Shown here: positions 5,148 through 39,675 of the stretch, piece by piece
Layout of the letters: each line of letters starts with the position of its first letter
Position numbering within the stretch: the stretch's first letter is position 1
DNA from: Leucoraja ocellata
Lineage: Eukaryota
Assembly: GCA_036785375.1 (NCBI GenBank)
Contig: JAWMAR010000131.1
Span: 1,984,001 to 2,048,000 of the forward strand
DNA length: 64,000 bases
Reading direction: 5' to 3'
Program-made: the position numbers and the translations under genes
The notes under the pieces: model-generated
What the model was told of the DNA's origin: nothing
The model's input: only the letters and a program-made list of their open reading frames with translations
Databases searched by the model: none

Positions 5148-6762
5148 CAGTGCATTTAGAAAGTATTTGGACCCCTTCACTTTTTCCACATTTTGTTACG
5201 TCACAGCCTTATTCTAAAATGGATTAAATTAATTTAGGTTTATCATCCATGTACACACAATACCCCATAAAGAAAAAGCAAAAACAGGTGTTTAGAAATT
5301 TTTGTAAAGTAGTTAAAAATAAATAACTGAAATATTACATTTACATAAGTATTCAGACCCTTCACTCAGTACTTTCTTGAGGCACCTTTGGCAGTAATTA
5401 CAGCCTCAAGTCTTCTTGGGTATAACGCTACAAGCTTGGCACGCCATTATTTGGGTAATTTCTCCCATTCTTCTCTGCAGATCTTCTCAAGCTCTGTCAG
5501 GTTGGATGGGGAGCGTCGATGCACAGCTATTTTCAGGTCCCACCAGAGATGTTCTATCGGGTTCAAGTCCGGGCTCTGGCTGGGCCACTCAAGGACATTC
5601 ACAGACTTGTCATGAAGCCACTCCTGTGTTGTATTGGCTGTGTGCTTAGGGGCATTGTTCTGTTGGAAGGAGAACCTCTGCCCCAGTCAGGTCCTGAATG
5701 CTCAGGAGCAGGTTTTTATCAAGGATCTCTCTGTACTTTGCTCCGTTCATCTTTCCCTCGACCGTGACTAGTCTCCCAGTTCCTGTCGCTGAAAAACATC
5801 CCCACAGCATGATGTTGCGACCACCATGCTTCACCGTAGGTACGGTTTTGGCCAGGTGATGAGCGATGCCTGATTTCCTGCAGACGTGACACTTCGCATT
5901 CAGGCCAAAGTGTTCAATCTTGGTTTCATCTGACCAGAGAATCTTGTTTAGGAGCCCTTTGGCAAACTCCAAGCGAGCTGTCAGGTGCCTTTTACTGAGG
6001 AGTGGCTTCCATCTGGCCACTCTACCATAAAAGCCTGATTGGTGGAGTGTTGCAGATATAGTTGGCCTTCTGGAATTTTCTCCCATCTCCACAGAGGAAC
6101 TCTGGAGCTCTGTCAGAGTGACCATCGGGTTCTTGGTCACCTCCCTGACCACGGCCCATTTCTCTCGATTGATCAGTTTGGCCGGGTGGCCAGCTCTACG
6201 AAGAGACGTGGTGATTTCAAAGTTCTTCCATTTAAGAATGACGGAGGCCACTGTGCTCTTCGGGACCTGCAATGCTGCCGAAATTGTTTTATACCCTTCC
6301 CCAGATCTGTGTCTCGACACAATCCTGTCTCAGACGTCTCTGGACAATTCCTTCGTCTTCATCGCTTGGTTTTTGTTCTGACATGCACTGTCAACTGCGG
6401 AACCTTATATAGACAGGTGTGTGCCTTTCCAAATCATGTACAATCAATTTAATTTACCGCTTGTGGACTCCAATCCACTTGTAGAAACATCTCAAGGCTA
6501 AACAATGGAAACAGGATGCACCGAAGCTCAATTCTGAGTGCCACAGCAAAGGGTCTGAATACTTATCTAAATGTGATATTTCAGTTATTTATTTTTAATT
6601 ACTTTGCAAATATTTCTAAACACCTGTTTTTGCTTTTATATTATGAGGTATCGTGTGTAGATTGATGATAAAACAATTGAATTTAATCCATTTTAGAATA
6701 AGGCTGTAACGTAACAAAATGTGGAAAAAGTGAAGGGGTCTGAATACTTTCTGAATGCACTG
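5148..6762 (-). mobile_element. Full-length Tc1/mariner transposon (IR/DR type, about 210-bp TIRs) with a pseudogenised transposase at about 6362-5366
   Basis: TA|CAGTGCATT...AATGCACTG|TA. AAGTATTCAGACCC-type direct repeats at both ends of each TIR. Minus-strand translation MKTKELSRDV*DRIVSRHRSGEGYKTIS...WSDETKIE...KHGG...MLWGCF...[11 protein letters not shown], with a stop and frameshifts. Confidence 0.95.
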
Positions 6763-23700: not shown

Positions 23701-23857
23701 TGTGGGGGAATGGGGACCCATAATAATGATGAAACGGGCTAGGAAAATTGGAATTTATCAAAATGATGGACGGCAAGTGAGATGACATATATGGGTGGGA
23801 AGTGTTTGGACAAGAAGAGAAATGATAGCGTTAAGGTAAAAGAAGACGGGTTCTGAG

Positions 23858-24772
23858 CTTTGTGACACCCCACTAGTTATTGCCTGCCATTCTGAAAAGG
23901 ACCCGTTAATTCCTACTCTTTGCTTCCTGTCTGCCAACCGGTTTTCTATCCATGTCAATATAGTACTCTGAATACCATGTGCTCTGATTTTGCACACTAA
24001 TCCCTTGTGTGGAACCTTGCTAAAGGCTTTCTGAAAGTCCAGGTGCATGCCATCCACTGGCTTTCCCTTATCCATTCTACTTGTTACATCCTCAAAAAAT
24101 TCAAGTAGATTAGTCAAGCATGATTTGCCCTTCATAAATCCATGCTGATTTTGACTGATCCTGTGGTAGACAAACATGCTGGAGAAACTCAGTGGGTGAG
24201 GCAGCATCCATGGAGCGAAGGAATAGGTGATGTTTCGGACGGAGACCCTTCTGATCCTGTCACTGCTTTCCAAATGCTCTGCTATAACATCTTTAATAAT
24301 CGATTCAAGTATCTTCCCCACTACCGATGTAAGGCTAACTGGTCTATAATTCCATGTTTTCTCTCCTTTCTTAACAAATGGAGTTACATTGGCTACCCTC
24401 CAGTCCACAGGAACTGATCCAGCGTCGAGAGAACATTGGAAAATGATCACCAATGCATCCACAATTTCTAGGGCCACCTCCTTAGGTATTCTGGAATGCA
24501 GACCATCAGGCCCTGGGGATTTATCTGCCTTCAATCCCAACAGTTTACCCAACACCATTTCCTGACTAATGTGGATTCCCTTCAGTTCATCCCTCCCACT
24601 AGATACCCAGTCCACTAGTATTTCTGGGAGATTGTTTGTCTTCCTTAGTGAAGACAGAACCAAAGTACTCGTTTAACTGTTCTGCCATTTCCTTGTTTCC
24701 CATTATAAATTCACCTGTAAGGGACCTACATTTGTTTTCACTAATCTTTTCCTTTTTACATATTTAAAGAAA
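23858..24772 (-). mobile_element. CR1 LINE ORF2 (reverse transcriptase) fragment, interrupted by an 86-bp insertion
   Basis: ORF 23758-24663 contains KSPGPDG, DWRVANVTP, NYRPVSLTSVVGKILE, QHGFMKGKSCLTNLLEFFE, LDFQKAF and WIENRLADRKQRV. Confidence 0.92.
24165..24250 (-). mobile_element. Penelope-type short repeat inserted in CR1 with a 10-bp target-site duplication
   Basis: CTGATCCTGT at 24155-24164 and 24251-24260 flanks family sequence gtagacaaacatgctggagaaactcag...gacccttc. Confidence 0.85.
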
Positions 24773-33940: not shown

Positions 33941-34048
33941 ATGTACCAGCTTCCTGTTAACAACCTTGCAAATCTAAGAAAAGCTCGTAAAACGGTGAAA
34001 AAAATCCTTACTGATATTGGGTTAGATTATTGTAAAGACCATATTGAG
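33941..34048 (+). CDS. ADNP: Activity-dependent neuroprotector homeobox protein, first coding exon (exon begins 33936)
   Basis: aacag|AAACT ATG...GAG|gtaagt. [36 protein letters not shown] matches the ADNP N-terminus (human [36 protein letters not shown]). Confidence 0.97.
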
Positions 34049-35393: not shown

Positions 35394-35486
35394 GATTTTA
35401 AACAGTTTGAACCAAATGATTTCTACCTAAAAAACACTACTTGGGATGATGTCTCGCTTTGGGATCCTTCTTCCACAAAGCTGCAG
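35394..35486 (+). CDS. ADNP: ADNP second coding exon (93 bp)
   Basis: ttccag|GAT...CAG|gttggt. Translates [31 protein letters not shown]. Confidence 0.97.
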
Positions 35487-36006
35487 GTTGGTTTTATTTC
35501 AGATTTTGAATATATTGACGGTTAAGTTATGGTTACATCTGTGATGCAGCTATAACTAGTTAACAGGAAGATCTTTATCTGCAATTTTTTAACTAATGGT
35601 TCGATGATTGTGTTGGTAAATCCACTGTACCGGCAGTTCAAGACATTTGATGCATCTCTCTGTATATGTGAATTGTAGTTTAGTGCAGTTGAAATATGTT
35701 GTATATATGTATTCAGTTGTCTCAAGCCTCACTGCTAACTGTAGTATCGACACAACTTGTAAAGTAGTATCTGTACTATTCTTGTGTAGACACTAAAACT
35801 ATATCATGGCTAAATAACAGATAACTGATTTAGAGCAGTTTTTGGTAGTGAATTTAAAAATTAAACTTCTAAAATTGAAAAAAAATTGTGTATCTATATT
35901 TATGCAATTTACAGTATTCTAATAGTTTTGTTTAAATCATAAATGAAGTAATATTAGATTGATTTACATTGCAATATGACCTAAACATTTTTTGTTTGTT
36001 TTTCAG

Positions 36007-39000
36007 GATTATCGTACAAAACCATTTTGCTGCAGCGCTTGTCCTTTTGCATCCAAATTTTTTTCTGCCTACAAAAGCCACTTCCGAAATGTTCATAGTG
36101 AAGATTTTGAAAACAAAATCCTCATTAATTGCCCTTATTGTCCCTACAATGCCGACAGAAAGACCTTGGAGACCCATATCAAAATATTTCATGTTCCTCT
36201 CTGGAAAGTACCTAGTGGAGGCAAGAATGCACACCATGAAAAGTCAAAGCAGGATAGCAGTCTTAAACTGAAGCATGGTGACAGTGTGGAACAAGCAGTC
36301 TATTACTGCAAGAAGTGTACTTACCGTGATCCCCTTTATGATGTTGTCAGGAAGCATATTTACAGGGAACATTTTCAGCATGTGGCAGCCCCTTATGTGG
36401 CAAGAACAGCAGACAAGTCAGTGAATGGAACATTTTCTGCCACTAATGGAAGAGAGGATGGGACTGTGCATTGTAAACGTTGTCTCTTCATACCCAAAAC
36501 TTACGAAGCCTTGGTGCAGCATGTTATTGAAGACCATGAACGAATAGGATACCAAGTAACAGCTATGATAGGGCACACTAATGTGGTTGTTCCAAGATCA
36601 AAACCCTTGATGCTGATAGCACCAAAGCCACATGACAAGGCTTTAGCAGCTGGAAATTATCAGGGTGGGAAAGGTTCAATGCAGCAGAATATGAATCGTG
36701 CATCCATGTCAAAAAATGCACAGAATTCGGCTGTCAATCTTATGTCGGGTGGTGGTCGTCTGCCACCAAAGTATGCGGTTTCATCGATGGCACATAACTA
36801 TTCTTTGGGTCAACAAATGAGGCTCCCACTGCCAGGTGGTTTACCAGTTTCTATGCAGCAGCGACCACAAACAGTAAAGCAGTTGATCTCTGGTGGCAAT
36901 GGGCGACAATATGGAGTTGGTGCCGGTGAACAGAGGAGAGCATCGCAGATGCAATATAATGTTCAGTCGGGGAGCATGACTGGTAATAGTGGATCAATGA
37001 AACAGTCACAGTACAATATTTCTCAAGCTCAGAGGATGCAAGGATTATCTGCTTCAGCAGTAAAGTCACTAACTTCCCCAACTAATTCTGCTAACCAGAG
37101 CCCTGCGTTAGCAGGGTCTGCTGCTCAGAAGTGGAAGATTTGCACAATGTGTAATGAGCTTTTTCCAGAAAGTGTGTACAGCATACACTTTGAAAAGGAG
37201 CATAAAGCTGAAAAGATCCAGGCTGTAGCTAATTACATTCAGAAGATCAACAGTTTCACAAGCAAATGTCTCTACTGTAATCGCTATTTACCCAGTGAAA
37301 CACTGCTTAACCATATGCTTATCCATGGACTCTCGTGTCCCTACTGTCGTTCCACTTTCAATGATGTTGACAAGATGGCTGAACATGTAAGAATCCTTCA
37401 CATTGATGAAGAAGTGGGACCCAAGACTGAATCAACGTTGACCTTTGATCTGTCTACACAGAAAGGTAGTCGCAGTAATATACAGCTCCATGTTACTACA
37501 TACAGTACATCTGAGAGTACCTCGGTGGAGAATACAAATTATCGGCCCCAGAATCAGAACTTGGGTTTTAGAAAGCCAGAAGGGCAGTTGCAGCAGCCAA
37601 AACCACAGGCCAAATCTAGAATAAAGCCAGATTTGAATTCTATACCTCAAACCCAGATTCCCTATAAAAATGATGTGGGTAAAACCCTTTGTCCATTGTG
37701 CTTTTCTATTTTGAAGGGCCCAATATCTGATGCTTTGGCGCACCATCTGAGGGAACGGCATCAGGTGATACAAACAATTCATCCGGTGGAGAAAAAGCTC
37801 ACCTATAAGTGCATTCACTGTTTGGGAGTCTACACGAGTAACATGACAGCTTCAACCATAACATTGCATCTGGTGCACTGTAGAGGTGTTGGAAAAACAC
37901 AAAATGGTCAGGATCGGAGCCTTACTCATGCCAAGGTAACACACTCGCCAAGTGTAATGCCCATGAAGCGAGAATATGAGTATGCATATGGGGACTTTGC
38001 TTTAATGAAAAAAAGGAAATTGGATGGTGAAGAACCTGTTCAGGGTTTTACCCCAGGAGACGATAAACCAGAGGAGCCAGTAGCTTTAGCTATTGATCCC
38101 AAGGGTTATGAGGATGAGTCCTATGAGGCCAGAAAAATGTTCCTTACAAACTATTTTAACAAACAACCTTACCCAAGCAGAAGGGAAATTGAAAAGTTGG
38201 CAGCTGGCTTATGGTTGTGGAAATCTGATATTGCTTCCCACTTTAGCAATAAGAGGAAGAAATGTGTTCGAGATTGCGAGAAGTACAGGCCTAAAGTATT
38301 GCTTGGATTTAACATGATGGAGACACGAAAAGTAAAGCACAATATGGACTTTGGGACGACTTGGAATATACTAAATAACACAGAAATAGTTGGCAAAGAA
38401 TCTGTTACTTTAAAACCAAGCATAGAAAAAGTAAATCAGAAACTGGGAAAAGGGAGAAGAGATTTGATTCGGGGACCGGAAAAATTGGAGGGAACCGTTT
38501 TAGATTTGAGCCCCCAAATGGAGGAAAATTCAAATCCAAACTTGGGAAAGATGAAAGGAAGAACTGTGAACCTGTGTTCAGAAAACGTGGAGGGAAGTGC
38601 TTTAGACTTGAGCACTCAGGTGGAAGAAAGACCTTCAAATGCCGGCTCTGCAATGGAGGAGGGAACACCATTGGATTTGAGTGCTCAGGTGGTGGAGGAA
38701 AGTCCTTCAATCAAGAGCACTGAGATGGTGGAGGAAAGTCCTTCAAATATGAGTTCTGAGATGGCAACAGAGAGCCCTTCAAATGTAAGTTCTGATATGG
38801 TCGAGGGAAGTGCTTTAGATTTGAGTTCCCAGATGGTGGAAAAAAGCCCTTCAAGTATGAGTGCTGAGATGGTGGAGGAAAGCCCATCGAACATGAGTGC
38901 TGAGATGGTGGAAGCAAGTCCTATAAATACGAGTCCTGATAATATGGAGGAAAATGCAACAAATGCTTTTGTTGGTGAAGATTTGTCATCAAGTGAAATG

Positions 39001-39675
39001 AGTGGTTTGCCGAGCAGGGAAGAAACTTCTGAAATGGTCCCTGAAGAATTAAACAATGAATTGCAAAAACCTGCATTTCCGGCAACTGCATCATTAGAGT
39101 TGAAGGATGATGTGTCAAATATGGATGAGGAGCAATATCCTGCGCCATCTTTAGAATCAAAAGATAAAGACTCAGAAAGTGAAGATTCAGAACAACTTTC
39201 TGAATGCAAAGATGTTGCTTCACCAACTGAGGATGGACTAGCATCGCCGCATGCTTCTGATCAGGAAGATGTTTCATCTGAACTGAAGCAAGAATTTTGG
39301 ATCAAACGACCTTGGACAGATGATGTATCCCAAAGTGAAGAGGAGGAGGAGCCCACTCGGACCTCGAAAACAAAAGCTGTATTGGAAAACGATGAACAAA
39401 ATTGGGGAGCGGGGCCAGGTGAGTGGAGTGGAGCACCATTCCAAAATGAAGGAGAAAAGTGGTCCAAAGAACAGCCTGAATGGAAGAATGTTTCACCAGA
39501 AAATGAGGAGAGTCTGTCCAATCCATTGTTGGATTGGCAAGGTAACACGGCAGATAGTGAAGGTGAGGAGCTGGATCAACTCCTTGATCAGTCAAACGAT
39601 GGCCTCTCCGATAATGTAGCAGAACCTGTTTGCAGCTCTTCATCGGGTGTTGGGCTAAGTAGTCAACCTGCATAA
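36007..39675 (+). CDS. ADNP: ADNP large terminal coding exon (1222 aa; spliced protein 1289 aa)
   Basis: tttcag|[17 protein letters not shown]..., multiple C2H2-type zinc fingers, NLS KR..KKRKLD, homeodomain ([38 protein letters not shown]), PxVxL motif PKVLL (38290-38304), C-terminal LSSQPA. Synteny with DPM1/BCAS4 indicates ADNP rather than ADNP2. Confidence 0.98.

What the first reader, a model, noticed from the sequence alone, without database searches (positions are those of the whole stretch)
38485..38952. Coding 36-bp tandem repeat gives ADNP an array of four CtBP-type motifs beside its HP1 motif
Seen: directly after the homeodomain and the PxVxL motif (PKVLL), the ORF runs through about 12-13 degenerate 11-12-aa units (about 36 bp, e.g. 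ATGGTGGAGGAAAGTCCTTCAAATATGAGTTCTGAG). They come in two types, [12 protein letters not shown] and xxEG[ST]xLDLSxQ. The second type gives VLDLS (38497-38511), ALDLS (38599-38613), PLDLS (38668-38682) and ALDLS (38812-38826). Established: PxDLS is the canonical CtBP co-repressor docking motif, ALDLS and VLDLS are the functional CtBP motifs of EBV EBNA3A, and oligomeric CtBP prefers multiple motifs. Mammalian ADNP (1102 aa in human) acts in the CHD4-ADNP-HP1 (ChAHP) complex, and I recall no such array in it. LDLS is kept while synonymous sites differ (GAT/GAC, TTA/TTG, AGC/AGT), which hints at protein-level selection. Inference: a lineage-specific (or ancestral, later lost) multivalent CtBP-recruiting module with SP phospho-spacers, accounting for most of the roughly 190 extra aa.
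Basis: partly seen in the sequence, partly recalled or inferred. Interest (0 to 1): 0.8.

Follow-up and report, generated by a model that had tools for sequence, protein, structure and literature searches.

The report
Shark ADNP gains CtBP-type motif array
In sharks and rays the chromatin regulator ADNP carries a repeat-built, floppy segment with four conserved copies of the docking motif for the co-repressor CtBP, which suggests, though binding is untested, that this autism-linked protein has a partner in cartilaginous fishes that it lacks in mammals.

Summary
The last coding exon of a batoid (ray or skate) ADNP holds a degenerate 36-bp coding repeat with VLDLS, ALDLS, PLDLS and ALDLS at the stated coordinates, in a region predicted to be disordered. 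It is not an assembly artefact: a transcript-sized contig encodes the same 1289-aa protein with one difference. All four motifs are kept in electric ray, catshark and sawshark (16 of 16 LDLS positions invariant; p about 0.001-0.009 by background). None of 95 named bony-vertebrate ADNPs has an array. Two points are new. The motif units and the SP spacer units descend from one 36-bp unit, so the four copies are one origin, later amplified. Spiny-rayed fish ADNPb carries a single PLDLS/PLNLS in an unrelated context (13 of 14 records), probably a second, independent gain. All variants are published CtBP ligands in other proteins (EBNA3A, RAI2, ZBTB18, ZEB1, ZNF750). Best reading: a multivalent, ZEB-like CtBP tether added to ADNP beside its HP1 motif (about 0.55). 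Binding was neither modelled nor measured, only four array-bearing sequences were available, and spacer serines are conserved too. I found no ADNP-CtBP motif report in the searches run.

The parts
33941..34048 (+). ADNP first coding exon (codons 1-36)
   Evidence: tblastn of P0001 on the window; GT donor; joined CDS matches P0001
35394..35486 (+). ADNP second coding exon
   Evidence: AG/GT ends
36007..39675 (+). ADNP last coding exon: zinc fingers, homeodomain, PxVxL, repeat array, acidic tail
38137..38262 (+). Homeodomain (part matched by Pfam PF00046)
   Evidence: residues 710-751 of the query starting at 36010; helices with pLDDT 77-88
38290..38304 (+). PxVxL HP1-binding motif (PKVLL)
   Evidence: orthologous to the PGVLL of bear and other amniote ADNPs; HP1 role from PMC10031977 passages
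38482..38940 (+). Degenerate 36-bp (12-codon) coding tandem repeat, 13 segments, acidic, Ser/Pro-rich, predicted disordered
38497..38511 (+). CtBP-type motif 1, VLDLS (also fits the psi-psi-x-psi SIM pattern)
   Evidence: same in 4 of 4 elasmobranchs
38551..38583 (+). Decayed motif-type unit without DL; least conserved segment of the array
   Evidence: 1 of 11 positions invariant; the two shark copies still resemble a motif unit
38599..38613 (+). CtBP-type motif 2, ALDLS
   Evidence: same in 4 of 4; the single motif of P0005 lies at a similar distance from PxVxL, +108 against +104
38668..38682 (+). CtBP-type motif 3, canonical PLDLS
   Evidence: same in 4 of 4
38689..38796 (+). Three SP-containing spacer units between motifs 3 and 4
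   Evidence: SPS invariant in 4 of 4 in each unit
38812..38826 (+). CtBP-type motif 4, ALDLS (VLDLS in Scyliorhinus)
38833..38940 (+). Three SP-containing spacer units after motif 4; the two sharks have one unit more

Best explanation
The segment is a multivalent short-linear-motif array for the co-repressor CtBP, built from a coding minisatellite in the disordered tail of elasmobranch ADNP. History (inferred): a 12-codon SP-rich unit was amplified in the chondrichthyan lineage; a few single-base changes turn its core PSN(L/M)S into PLDLS-type sequence; motif-bearing units were duplicated to four before rays and sharks split and have been kept since, each with its own signature. Mechanism (inferred from CtBP biology, not shown here): each LDL core pairs as a beta-strand in the PxDLS cleft of a CtBP subunit. 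One canonical PLDLS flanked by weaker V/A-LDLS sites raises avidity for the CtBP dimer or tetramer, as in ZEB1 and EBNA3A. ADNP, bound to DNA by its zinc fingers, to CHD4 by its N-terminus and to HP1 by the adjacent PxVxL, would so tether CtBP and its chromatin enzymes at its target sites. The SP and S/TQ sites between the motifs may tune this by phosphorylation (speculative). Shown: the sequence, its presence in a spliced transcript, predicted disorder, lineage restriction, conservation. Inferred: binding, the partner's identity, the effect on transcription.
For: (1) Prospective conservation test: motifs defined in the window are unchanged in Narcine bancroftii, Scyliorhinus canicula and Pristiophorus japonicus. 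16 of 16 LDLS positions are invariant against 88 of 140 other array positions (Fisher p=0.001) and 173 of 233 ungapped positions of the tail behind the array (p about 0.007-0.009); residue-matched expectation 0.0025. (2) In the ten 12-codon units, the D-L positions of motif units are invariant in 8 of 8 cases, the homologous positions of spacer units in 5 of 12; the unit that lacks DL is the most decayed, 1 of 11. (3) The only change at motif position 1 is A to V, between two validated variants. (4) Published ligands: ALDLS and VLDLS synergise in EBNA3A (PMC2883600, passages); VLDLS in ZBTB18 is needed for CtBP2 binding (PMC9684030, passages); RAI2 ALDLS binds with Kd about 5 uM through the LDL core, with no other specific flank contacts seen (PMC11187106, parts 1-2 of 10 and passages); ZEB1 uses a central PLDLS plus two flanking PLNLS (PMC2749851, passages). 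(5) AlphaFold2 gives the array pLDDT under 50 and no secondary structure, while the homeodomain helices reach 77-88. (6) A second lineage, acanthomorph fishes, has PLDLS or PLNLS in the same tail in an unrelated context: 13 of 14 records, against 0 of the other 81 named bony-vertebrate records.
Against: No binding experiment or complex model. Only 4 array-bearing sequences; cluster members could not be listed, so variation among about 50 related sequences is unseen. Elasmobranch ADNP evolves slowly, and the spacer serines are as invariant as the motif (6 of 6 at unit positions 5 and 10), as are the E and Q flanking each motif, so constraint is not confined to LDLS. Only 1 of 4 motifs is canonical, and the context is acidic (20% D/E, 4% K/R), without the basic residue that follows many strong CtBP motifs (recalled). 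The four copies represent one origin; one such motif arises in 0.9% of shuffled tails. The fifth chondrichthyan-like record P0005 has only one motif. Two mouse ChAHP preprints and an ADNP review do not mention CtBP in their main text; this fits the absence of the motif in mammals but gives no support. In fishes the motif abuts a conserved EPIAIDS block and is broken in Muraenolepis.
Confidence: 0.55

Rival explanations
1. The array binds CtBP but works like RAI2: several motifs on a flexible chain cross-link CtBP tetramers into filaments or foci, so ADNP sequesters or condenses CtBP instead of using it as a tethered co-repressor.
For: Two RAI2 ALDLS motifs with a 21-residue linker polymerise and inactivate CtBP, and a linker 11 residues shorter still does (PMC11187106). 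The linkers here are 29, 18 and 43 residues, two motifs are ALDLS, and there are four motifs for the four clefts of a tetramer.
Against: RAI2 has no folded domain, whereas ADNP is a DNA-bound repressor-complex subunit. ZEB1 (three motifs) and EBNA3A (two) recruit CtBP repression. Nothing was tested here.
Confidence: 0.13
2. A neutral or charge-driven repeat expansion in a length-tolerant acidic tail: LDLS arose once by point mutation of the spacer unit, was copied with it, and looks conserved because elasmobranch ADNP changes slowly.
For: Both unit types share one ancestor. 173 of 233 positions of the downstream tail are invariant. Other ADNP tails have their own short repeats, for example Ambystoma P0015 and representative P0124. 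Spacer serines are equally conserved.
Against: Zero changes at 16 sites where 5-7 are expected (0.31-0.46 changes per site). The copies keep position-specific signatures across rays and sharks, so there is no recent homogenisation. One copy is the exact canonical PLDLS. A second lineage has the same motif class.
Confidence: 0.2
3. The motifs are SUMO-interacting motifs: a poly-SIM array with acidic and phospho-serine flanks that reads SUMO chains on chromatin.
For: VLDL fits the psi-psi-x-psi pattern used in PMC8602451 (passages; scan). Flanks are acidic and serine-rich. Teleost and frog tails carry hydrophobic-acidic blocks at +105 to +120, and a psi-K-x-E SUMO consensus lies downstream in 5 of 5 chondrichthyan records.
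Against: Only 1 of 4 motifs in the window (2 of 4 in Scyliorhinus) fits that pattern; ALDLS and PLDLS do not. SIMs favour V/I-rich cores (recalled), while L-D-L-S is invariant here.
Confidence: 0.08
4. The motifs dock a partner other than CtBP that also reads PxDLS, such as BMAL1/CLOCK.
For: PXDLS was reported to bind BMAL1/CLOCK (PMC4231743, abstract and outline only).
Against: One report; the V/A variants found here are characterised as CtBP ligands.
Confidence: 0.04

Closest known systems
ZEB1 CtBP-interaction domain (aa 680-780; PLNLS-PLDLS-PLNLS)
   Same: DNA-binding zinc-finger/homeobox repressor with several PLDLS-like motifs in about 100 residues, one canonical site among weaker ones (PMC2749851, passages).
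   Different: The ADNP array has four motifs, uses V/A-LDLS as auxiliary sites, is visibly built from a 36-bp minisatellite, and is confined to elasmobranchs among the sequences examined.
RAI2 tandem ALDLS segment
   Same: Repeated ALDLS motifs in a disordered chain with linkers of about 20 residues (PMC11187106).
   Different: RAI2 is unfolded throughout and has two motifs; it polymerises and inactivates CtBP. No sequence homology was tested directly; a PDB search with the array found no RAI2 chain at E up to 10.
EBV EBNA3A ALDLS + VLDLS
   Same: The same two non-canonical variants, acting together (PMC2883600, passages).
   Different: Viral protein, two motifs, no repeat origin described in the passages read.
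Mammalian ADNP in ChAHP (CHD4-ADNP-HP1)
   Same: Orthologue: same zinc fingers, homeodomain and PxVxL; 76% identical to bear ADNP over the region searched.
   Different: The five named mammalian tails examined have no xLDLS motif, and the bear tail is 177 residues shorter, 284 against 461. CtBP does not occur in the main text of the ChAHP papers read.
Lineage-specific CtBP motif in protostome Su(H)
   Same: Precedent for a CtBP motif present in the poorly conserved region of a conserved transcription factor in some lineages and absent in others (PMC6777938, passages).
   Different: A single motif, read there as ancestral and later lost; here two apparent gains and an amplification.

Membership tests
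ADNP orthologue | ADNP_N zinc-finger region plus homeodomain | tested here: met
   Pfam PF19627 E=0, PF00046 E=1e-06
ADNP orthologue | Groups with named ADNPs; long C-terminal tail (unlike ADNP2) | tested here: met
   Sister to Narcine ADNP, support 96, 95% identity over 808 columns; 461-aa tail
ChAHP subunit | PxVxL motif after the homeodomain | tested here: met
   PKVLL at 38290, in 5 of 5 chondrichthyan records
ChAHP subunit | Physical binding to CHD4 and HP1 | not testable with these tools
   No experiment possible
CtBP ligand (PxDLS class) | PxDLS or an experimentally validated variant | tested here: met
   1 canonical PLDLS, 2 ALDLS, 1 VLDLS; variants validated in other proteins
CtBP ligand (PxDLS class) | Motif in a disordered, accessible region | tested here: met
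   pLDDT under 50 and no secondary structure; low pLDDT from a 12-row alignment is indirect evidence of disorder
CtBP ligand (PxDLS class) | Motif more conserved than its flanks | tested here: met
   16 of 16 against 88 of 140 (p=0.001) and 173 of 233 (p about 0.009); four sequences only, and spacer serines are also invariant
CtBP ligand (PxDLS class) | DL-dependent binding to CtBP | not testable with these tools
   No CtBP chain was available for a complex model; needs experiment
RAI2-type CtBP polymeriser | Two or more ALDLS-like motifs on short flexible linkers | tested here: met
   Linkers 29, 18, 43 residues against 21 in RAI2
RAI2-type CtBP polymeriser | Induces CtBP filaments or foci and relieves repression | not testable with these tools
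   Needs SEC/EM and cell assays
Poly-SIM array | Several psi-psi-x-psi or psi-x-psi-psi cores with acidic flanks | tested here: not met
   1 of 4 motifs in the window, Narcine and Pristiophorus; 2 of 4 in Scyliorhinus

The most novel reading that the evidence does not exclude
ADNP acquired CtBP docking twice independently: in cartilaginous fishes by mutation and amplification of a coding minisatellite into a four-motif array that can span or cross-link CtBP tetramers on chromatin, and in spiny-rayed fishes as a single PLDLS. ChAHP would then have a lineage-variable fourth partner, and the shark array would be a chromatin-anchored CtBP condenser and a clear case of a repeat unit giving birth to a functional docking motif.
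Probability: 0.22. Interest if true: 0.78.

Novelty: new variant of a known kind. Interest (0 to 1): 0.55.

Why it matters
ChAHP is described as a three-part complex from mouse work, and ADNP's C-terminal tail is treated as poorly conserved. If the motifs bind, ADNP's co-repressor wiring differs between vertebrate lineages, with CtBP added twice. Medaka-type or perch-type fish models of adnp would then not be equivalent to zebrafish or mouse in this respect. The array also offers a natural test of how motif number and spacing decide between recruiting CtBP (ZEB1-like) and polymerising it (RAI2-like), and a traceable example of a short linear motif arising from a coding tandem repeat by a few base changes. 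The mechanism class itself, multiple PxDLS-like motifs, is known.

Tried and rejected
Assembly artefact: rejected (plus three other species). Array documented across vertebrates: rejected for the sequences seen (0 of 95 named bony-vertebrate ADNPs with two or more motifs); these are 95 of the 120 listed out of 436 hits, and 20 unnamed records were left out. dN/dS among paralogous units (pN 0 at the motif): not used as evidence, being circular; in that call two 33-bp units were also out of register, so its spacer-unit rows are not cited (registers corrected). A first motif scan missed most tails because the PxVxL pattern was too strict; redone by alignment. Search for shorter relatives of the array: none among 4669 candidates. 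Search of 50%-identity representatives: 60 hits, no further array-bearing ADNP seen; 4 of the 60 were read, none has the motif in its tail, and no named jawless-fish ADNP was obtained, so gain versus loss is not polarised; the weak low-complexity hits to the array were not read. PDB search with the array: one chance match to a designed repeat protein, E=0.35. ESM Atlas: no usable hit. Cluster members could not be listed, so variation within the P0001-P0005 clusters (23, 8, 17, 3 and 4 sequences) is unchecked. A CtBP-peptide complex was not modelled, for lack of a CtBP chain. Viral and metagenome contig collections were not searched. Literature: searches (ADNP + CtBP, 20 of 42 listed; 20 of 160 listed; 3 of 3; 6 of 6) showed no paper on a CtBP motif in ADNP, judged from listings and abstract starts; PMC10117376 (passages) tests ADNP and CtBP only as TBR1 partners; one search gave no ADNP paper among 15 listed; searches gave nothing relevant. 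Figures and bioRxiv supplements (the vertebrate ADNP alignment of the ChAHP2 preprint, IP-MS tables) were not seen and may bear on novelty; subscription journals are largely missing.

Full report
1. The observation. The window's ORF 35980-39675 (+) is the last coding exon of ADNP. With exons 33941-34048 and 35394-35486 it gives a 1289-aa protein with canonical splice ends. TRF reports a 36-bp period at 38678-38922 with 6.8 copies at 70%; by hand the array 38482-38940 has 13 segments. Shuffling the region gave one LDLS in 569 of 100,000 trials and never two, but the copies come from duplication, so the fair figure is that for one origin: 0.9% of shuffled tails hold a [PAV]L[DN]LS.

2. It is real and expressed. 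Protein P0001, from a contig of at most 5444 nt, matches the spliced CDS at 1288 of 1289 residues. The genomic span of the CDS is 5735 nt, so that contig is a spliced transcript (inference). The nearest named relative is Narcine bancroftii, so the window is from a ray or skate.

3. Distribution. The array with four motifs is in Narcine, Scyliorhinus canicula and Pristiophorus japonicus; the sharks have one more spacer unit. The unnamed record P0005, chondrichthyan-like and outside both the ray pair and the shark pair in the tree, has the spacer units and one ALDLS. One search found 436 homologues and listed 120; I analysed 100: the 5 above and 95 named bony vertebrates, leaving out 20 unnamed records. 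None of the 95 has two or more motifs, and 13 have one. Those 13 are 13 of the 14 records of the acanthomorph ADNPb clade (support 100, which used 38 of the 100 plus 4 representatives): PLDLS in Polymixia and the perciforms, PLNLS in Gadus and one other record, broken in Muraenolepis. The context is unrelated to the shark repeat and directly precedes a conserved EPIAIDS block. Salmonids, pike, smelt, otophysans, eels and older fish lineages have other residues there. The tree needs 3 changes, read as two gains and one loss; without a reliable outgroup an old motif lost many times cannot be excluded, but the different contexts argue against it. PLNLS is a published CtBP motif in ZNF750 and ZEB1 (PMC4173152 and PMC2749851, passages).

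4. Origin. The two unit types are one family: their consensus units are identical at 24 of 36 bases in register, a value that 0 of 100,000 codon shuffles reached. The core codons differ by single bases (TCA/TTA, AAT/GAT, ATG/TTG), and P0005 spacer units read PSNLS, two substitutions from PLDLS. Each motif unit keeps its own signature across rays and sharks, so the four copies predate that split (about 270-300 million years, recalled) and were not homogenised since.

5. Selection. The valid test takes motifs defined in the window and looks at the other three species. All 16 LDLS positions are invariant, against 88 of 140 other array positions (Fisher p=0.001; residue-matched 0.0025) and 173 of 233 ungapped positions behind the array (p about 0.007-0.009). 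In the ten full-length units, D-L is invariant in 8 of 8 cases and the homologous spacer positions in 5 of 12; the one motif-type unit lacking DL is the most decayed, 1 of 11. Against this: there are only four sequences, the gene is slow, and the spacer serines (6 of 6 at two positions) and the E and Q beside each motif are also invariant. Constraint on the array is therefore fairly well supported, and its focus on LDLS moderately.

6. Structure. AlphaFold2 on a 12-row alignment gives the homeodomain helices pLDDT 77-88 and the array under 50 with no secondary structure, as expected of a linear-motif region. The array is 20% acidic, with 8 SP sites and inter-motif linkers of 29, 18 and 43 residues.

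7. Mechanism. Each variant is a tested CtBP ligand elsewhere. ALDLS and VLDLS synergise in EBNA3A (PMC2883600, passages). VLDLS is required for ZBTB18-CtBP2 binding (PMC9684030, passages). RAI2 ALDLS binds at about 5 uM by beta-pairing of its LDL core, with no specific flank contacts seen (PMC11187106, parts 1-2 of 10 and passages), which softens the objection that the flanks here are acidic. ZEB1 uses a canonical site with two auxiliary ones. I therefore favour a ZEB-like multivalent tether that adds CtBP to ADNP next to its HP1 motif (0.55). Rivals are neutral or charge-driven expansion (0.2), RAI2-like polymerisation of CtBP (0.13), a poly-SIM array (0.08; only 1 of 4 motifs fits the pattern of PMC8602451) and another PxDLS reader (0.04; PMC4231743, abstract). 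CtBP binding in either mode thus stands at about 0.68. No binding was modelled or measured.

8. Comparison and novelty. The gene is an ordinary ADNP orthologue. Multiple PxDLS-like motifs are a known device (ZEB1, RAI2, EBNA3A, ZNF750), and lineage-variable CtBP motifs have a precedent in Su(H) (PMC6777938, passages). What I did not find in print is any CtBP motif in ADNP: searches showed none in their listings, and 'CtBP' occurs 0 times in the main text of two ChAHP preprints (10.1101/2024.02.05.578923, 10.1101/2025.07.02.662776; passages) and of an ADNP review (PMC10031977, passages). Figures, bioRxiv supplements and most subscription journals were not seen. The feature is a new variant of a known kind.

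9. Verdict. Observation confirmed; interpretation partly supported and extended by the common origin of the units and the probable second gain in spiny-rayed fishes. Interest 0.55: a specialist in ChAHP or motif evolution would be surprised and can test it with a peptide pull-down, but the mechanism class is known and binding is still a prediction.

Noticed in passing
P0079, P0087-P0090, P0097, P0102, P0106, P0108, P0111, P0112, P0114, P0116 (tail, +94 to +117 after the PxVxL column): Acanthomorph ADNPb has a single PLDLS or PLNLS in a context unrelated to the shark repeat; probably an independent gain.
   Followed up: partly
PxVxL column of the 95 named bony-vertebrate ADNPs: The P of PxVxL is replaced in many lizards, snakes, frogs and teleosts (L, V, A, C and others), while it is kept in the chondrichthyan, bird and mammal records; HP1 binding may vary by lineage.
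   Followed up: no
Teleost and frog ADNP tails, about +100 to +125; also P0121, P0124, P0125, P0149: A hydrophobic-then-acidic block (EPIAIDSDS in teleosts, IILDSSD in frogs) resembles a SUMO-interacting motif; chondrichthyan tails have none at that place.
   Followed up: partly
window 39283-39294: psi-K-x-E SUMO acceptor consensus (LKQE) inside a strongly conserved block of the tail, in 5 of 5 chondrichthyan records.
   Followed up: no
window 38482-38832: S/TQ pairs (ATM/ATR-type sites, recalled consensus) directly follow the motifs: 2 in the window, 4-5 in the same region of the other three elasmobranchs, none in P0005.
   Followed up: no
P0097: The record labelled Lepidogalaxias salamandroides is 93% identical to Muraenolepis and nests with cods (support 100); the label or the gene's origin may be wrong.
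   Followed up: no
Acanthomorph ADNPb, near the C-terminus: A second conserved short motif, PIIIPKFVP, in 8 of the 9 tails aligned; partner unknown.
   Followed up: no
P0015, P0029, P0066, P0124: Other ADNP tails carry their own, unrelated short repeats (salamanders, Nanorana, one fish representative), so this tail tolerates repeat expansion.
   Followed up: no
window about 36830-36865: The mammalian NAP octapeptide (as given in PMC10031977) is not present in this protein; the region that seems to correspond reads differently.
   Followed up: no
window 5646-6329 (-) and 23758-24672 (-): Fragments of a Tc1/mariner transposase (PF01498, PF25787) and of a LINE reverse transcriptase (PF00078) upstream of the coding exons. 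No Rfam family reached its gathering score in the window.
   Followed up: partly
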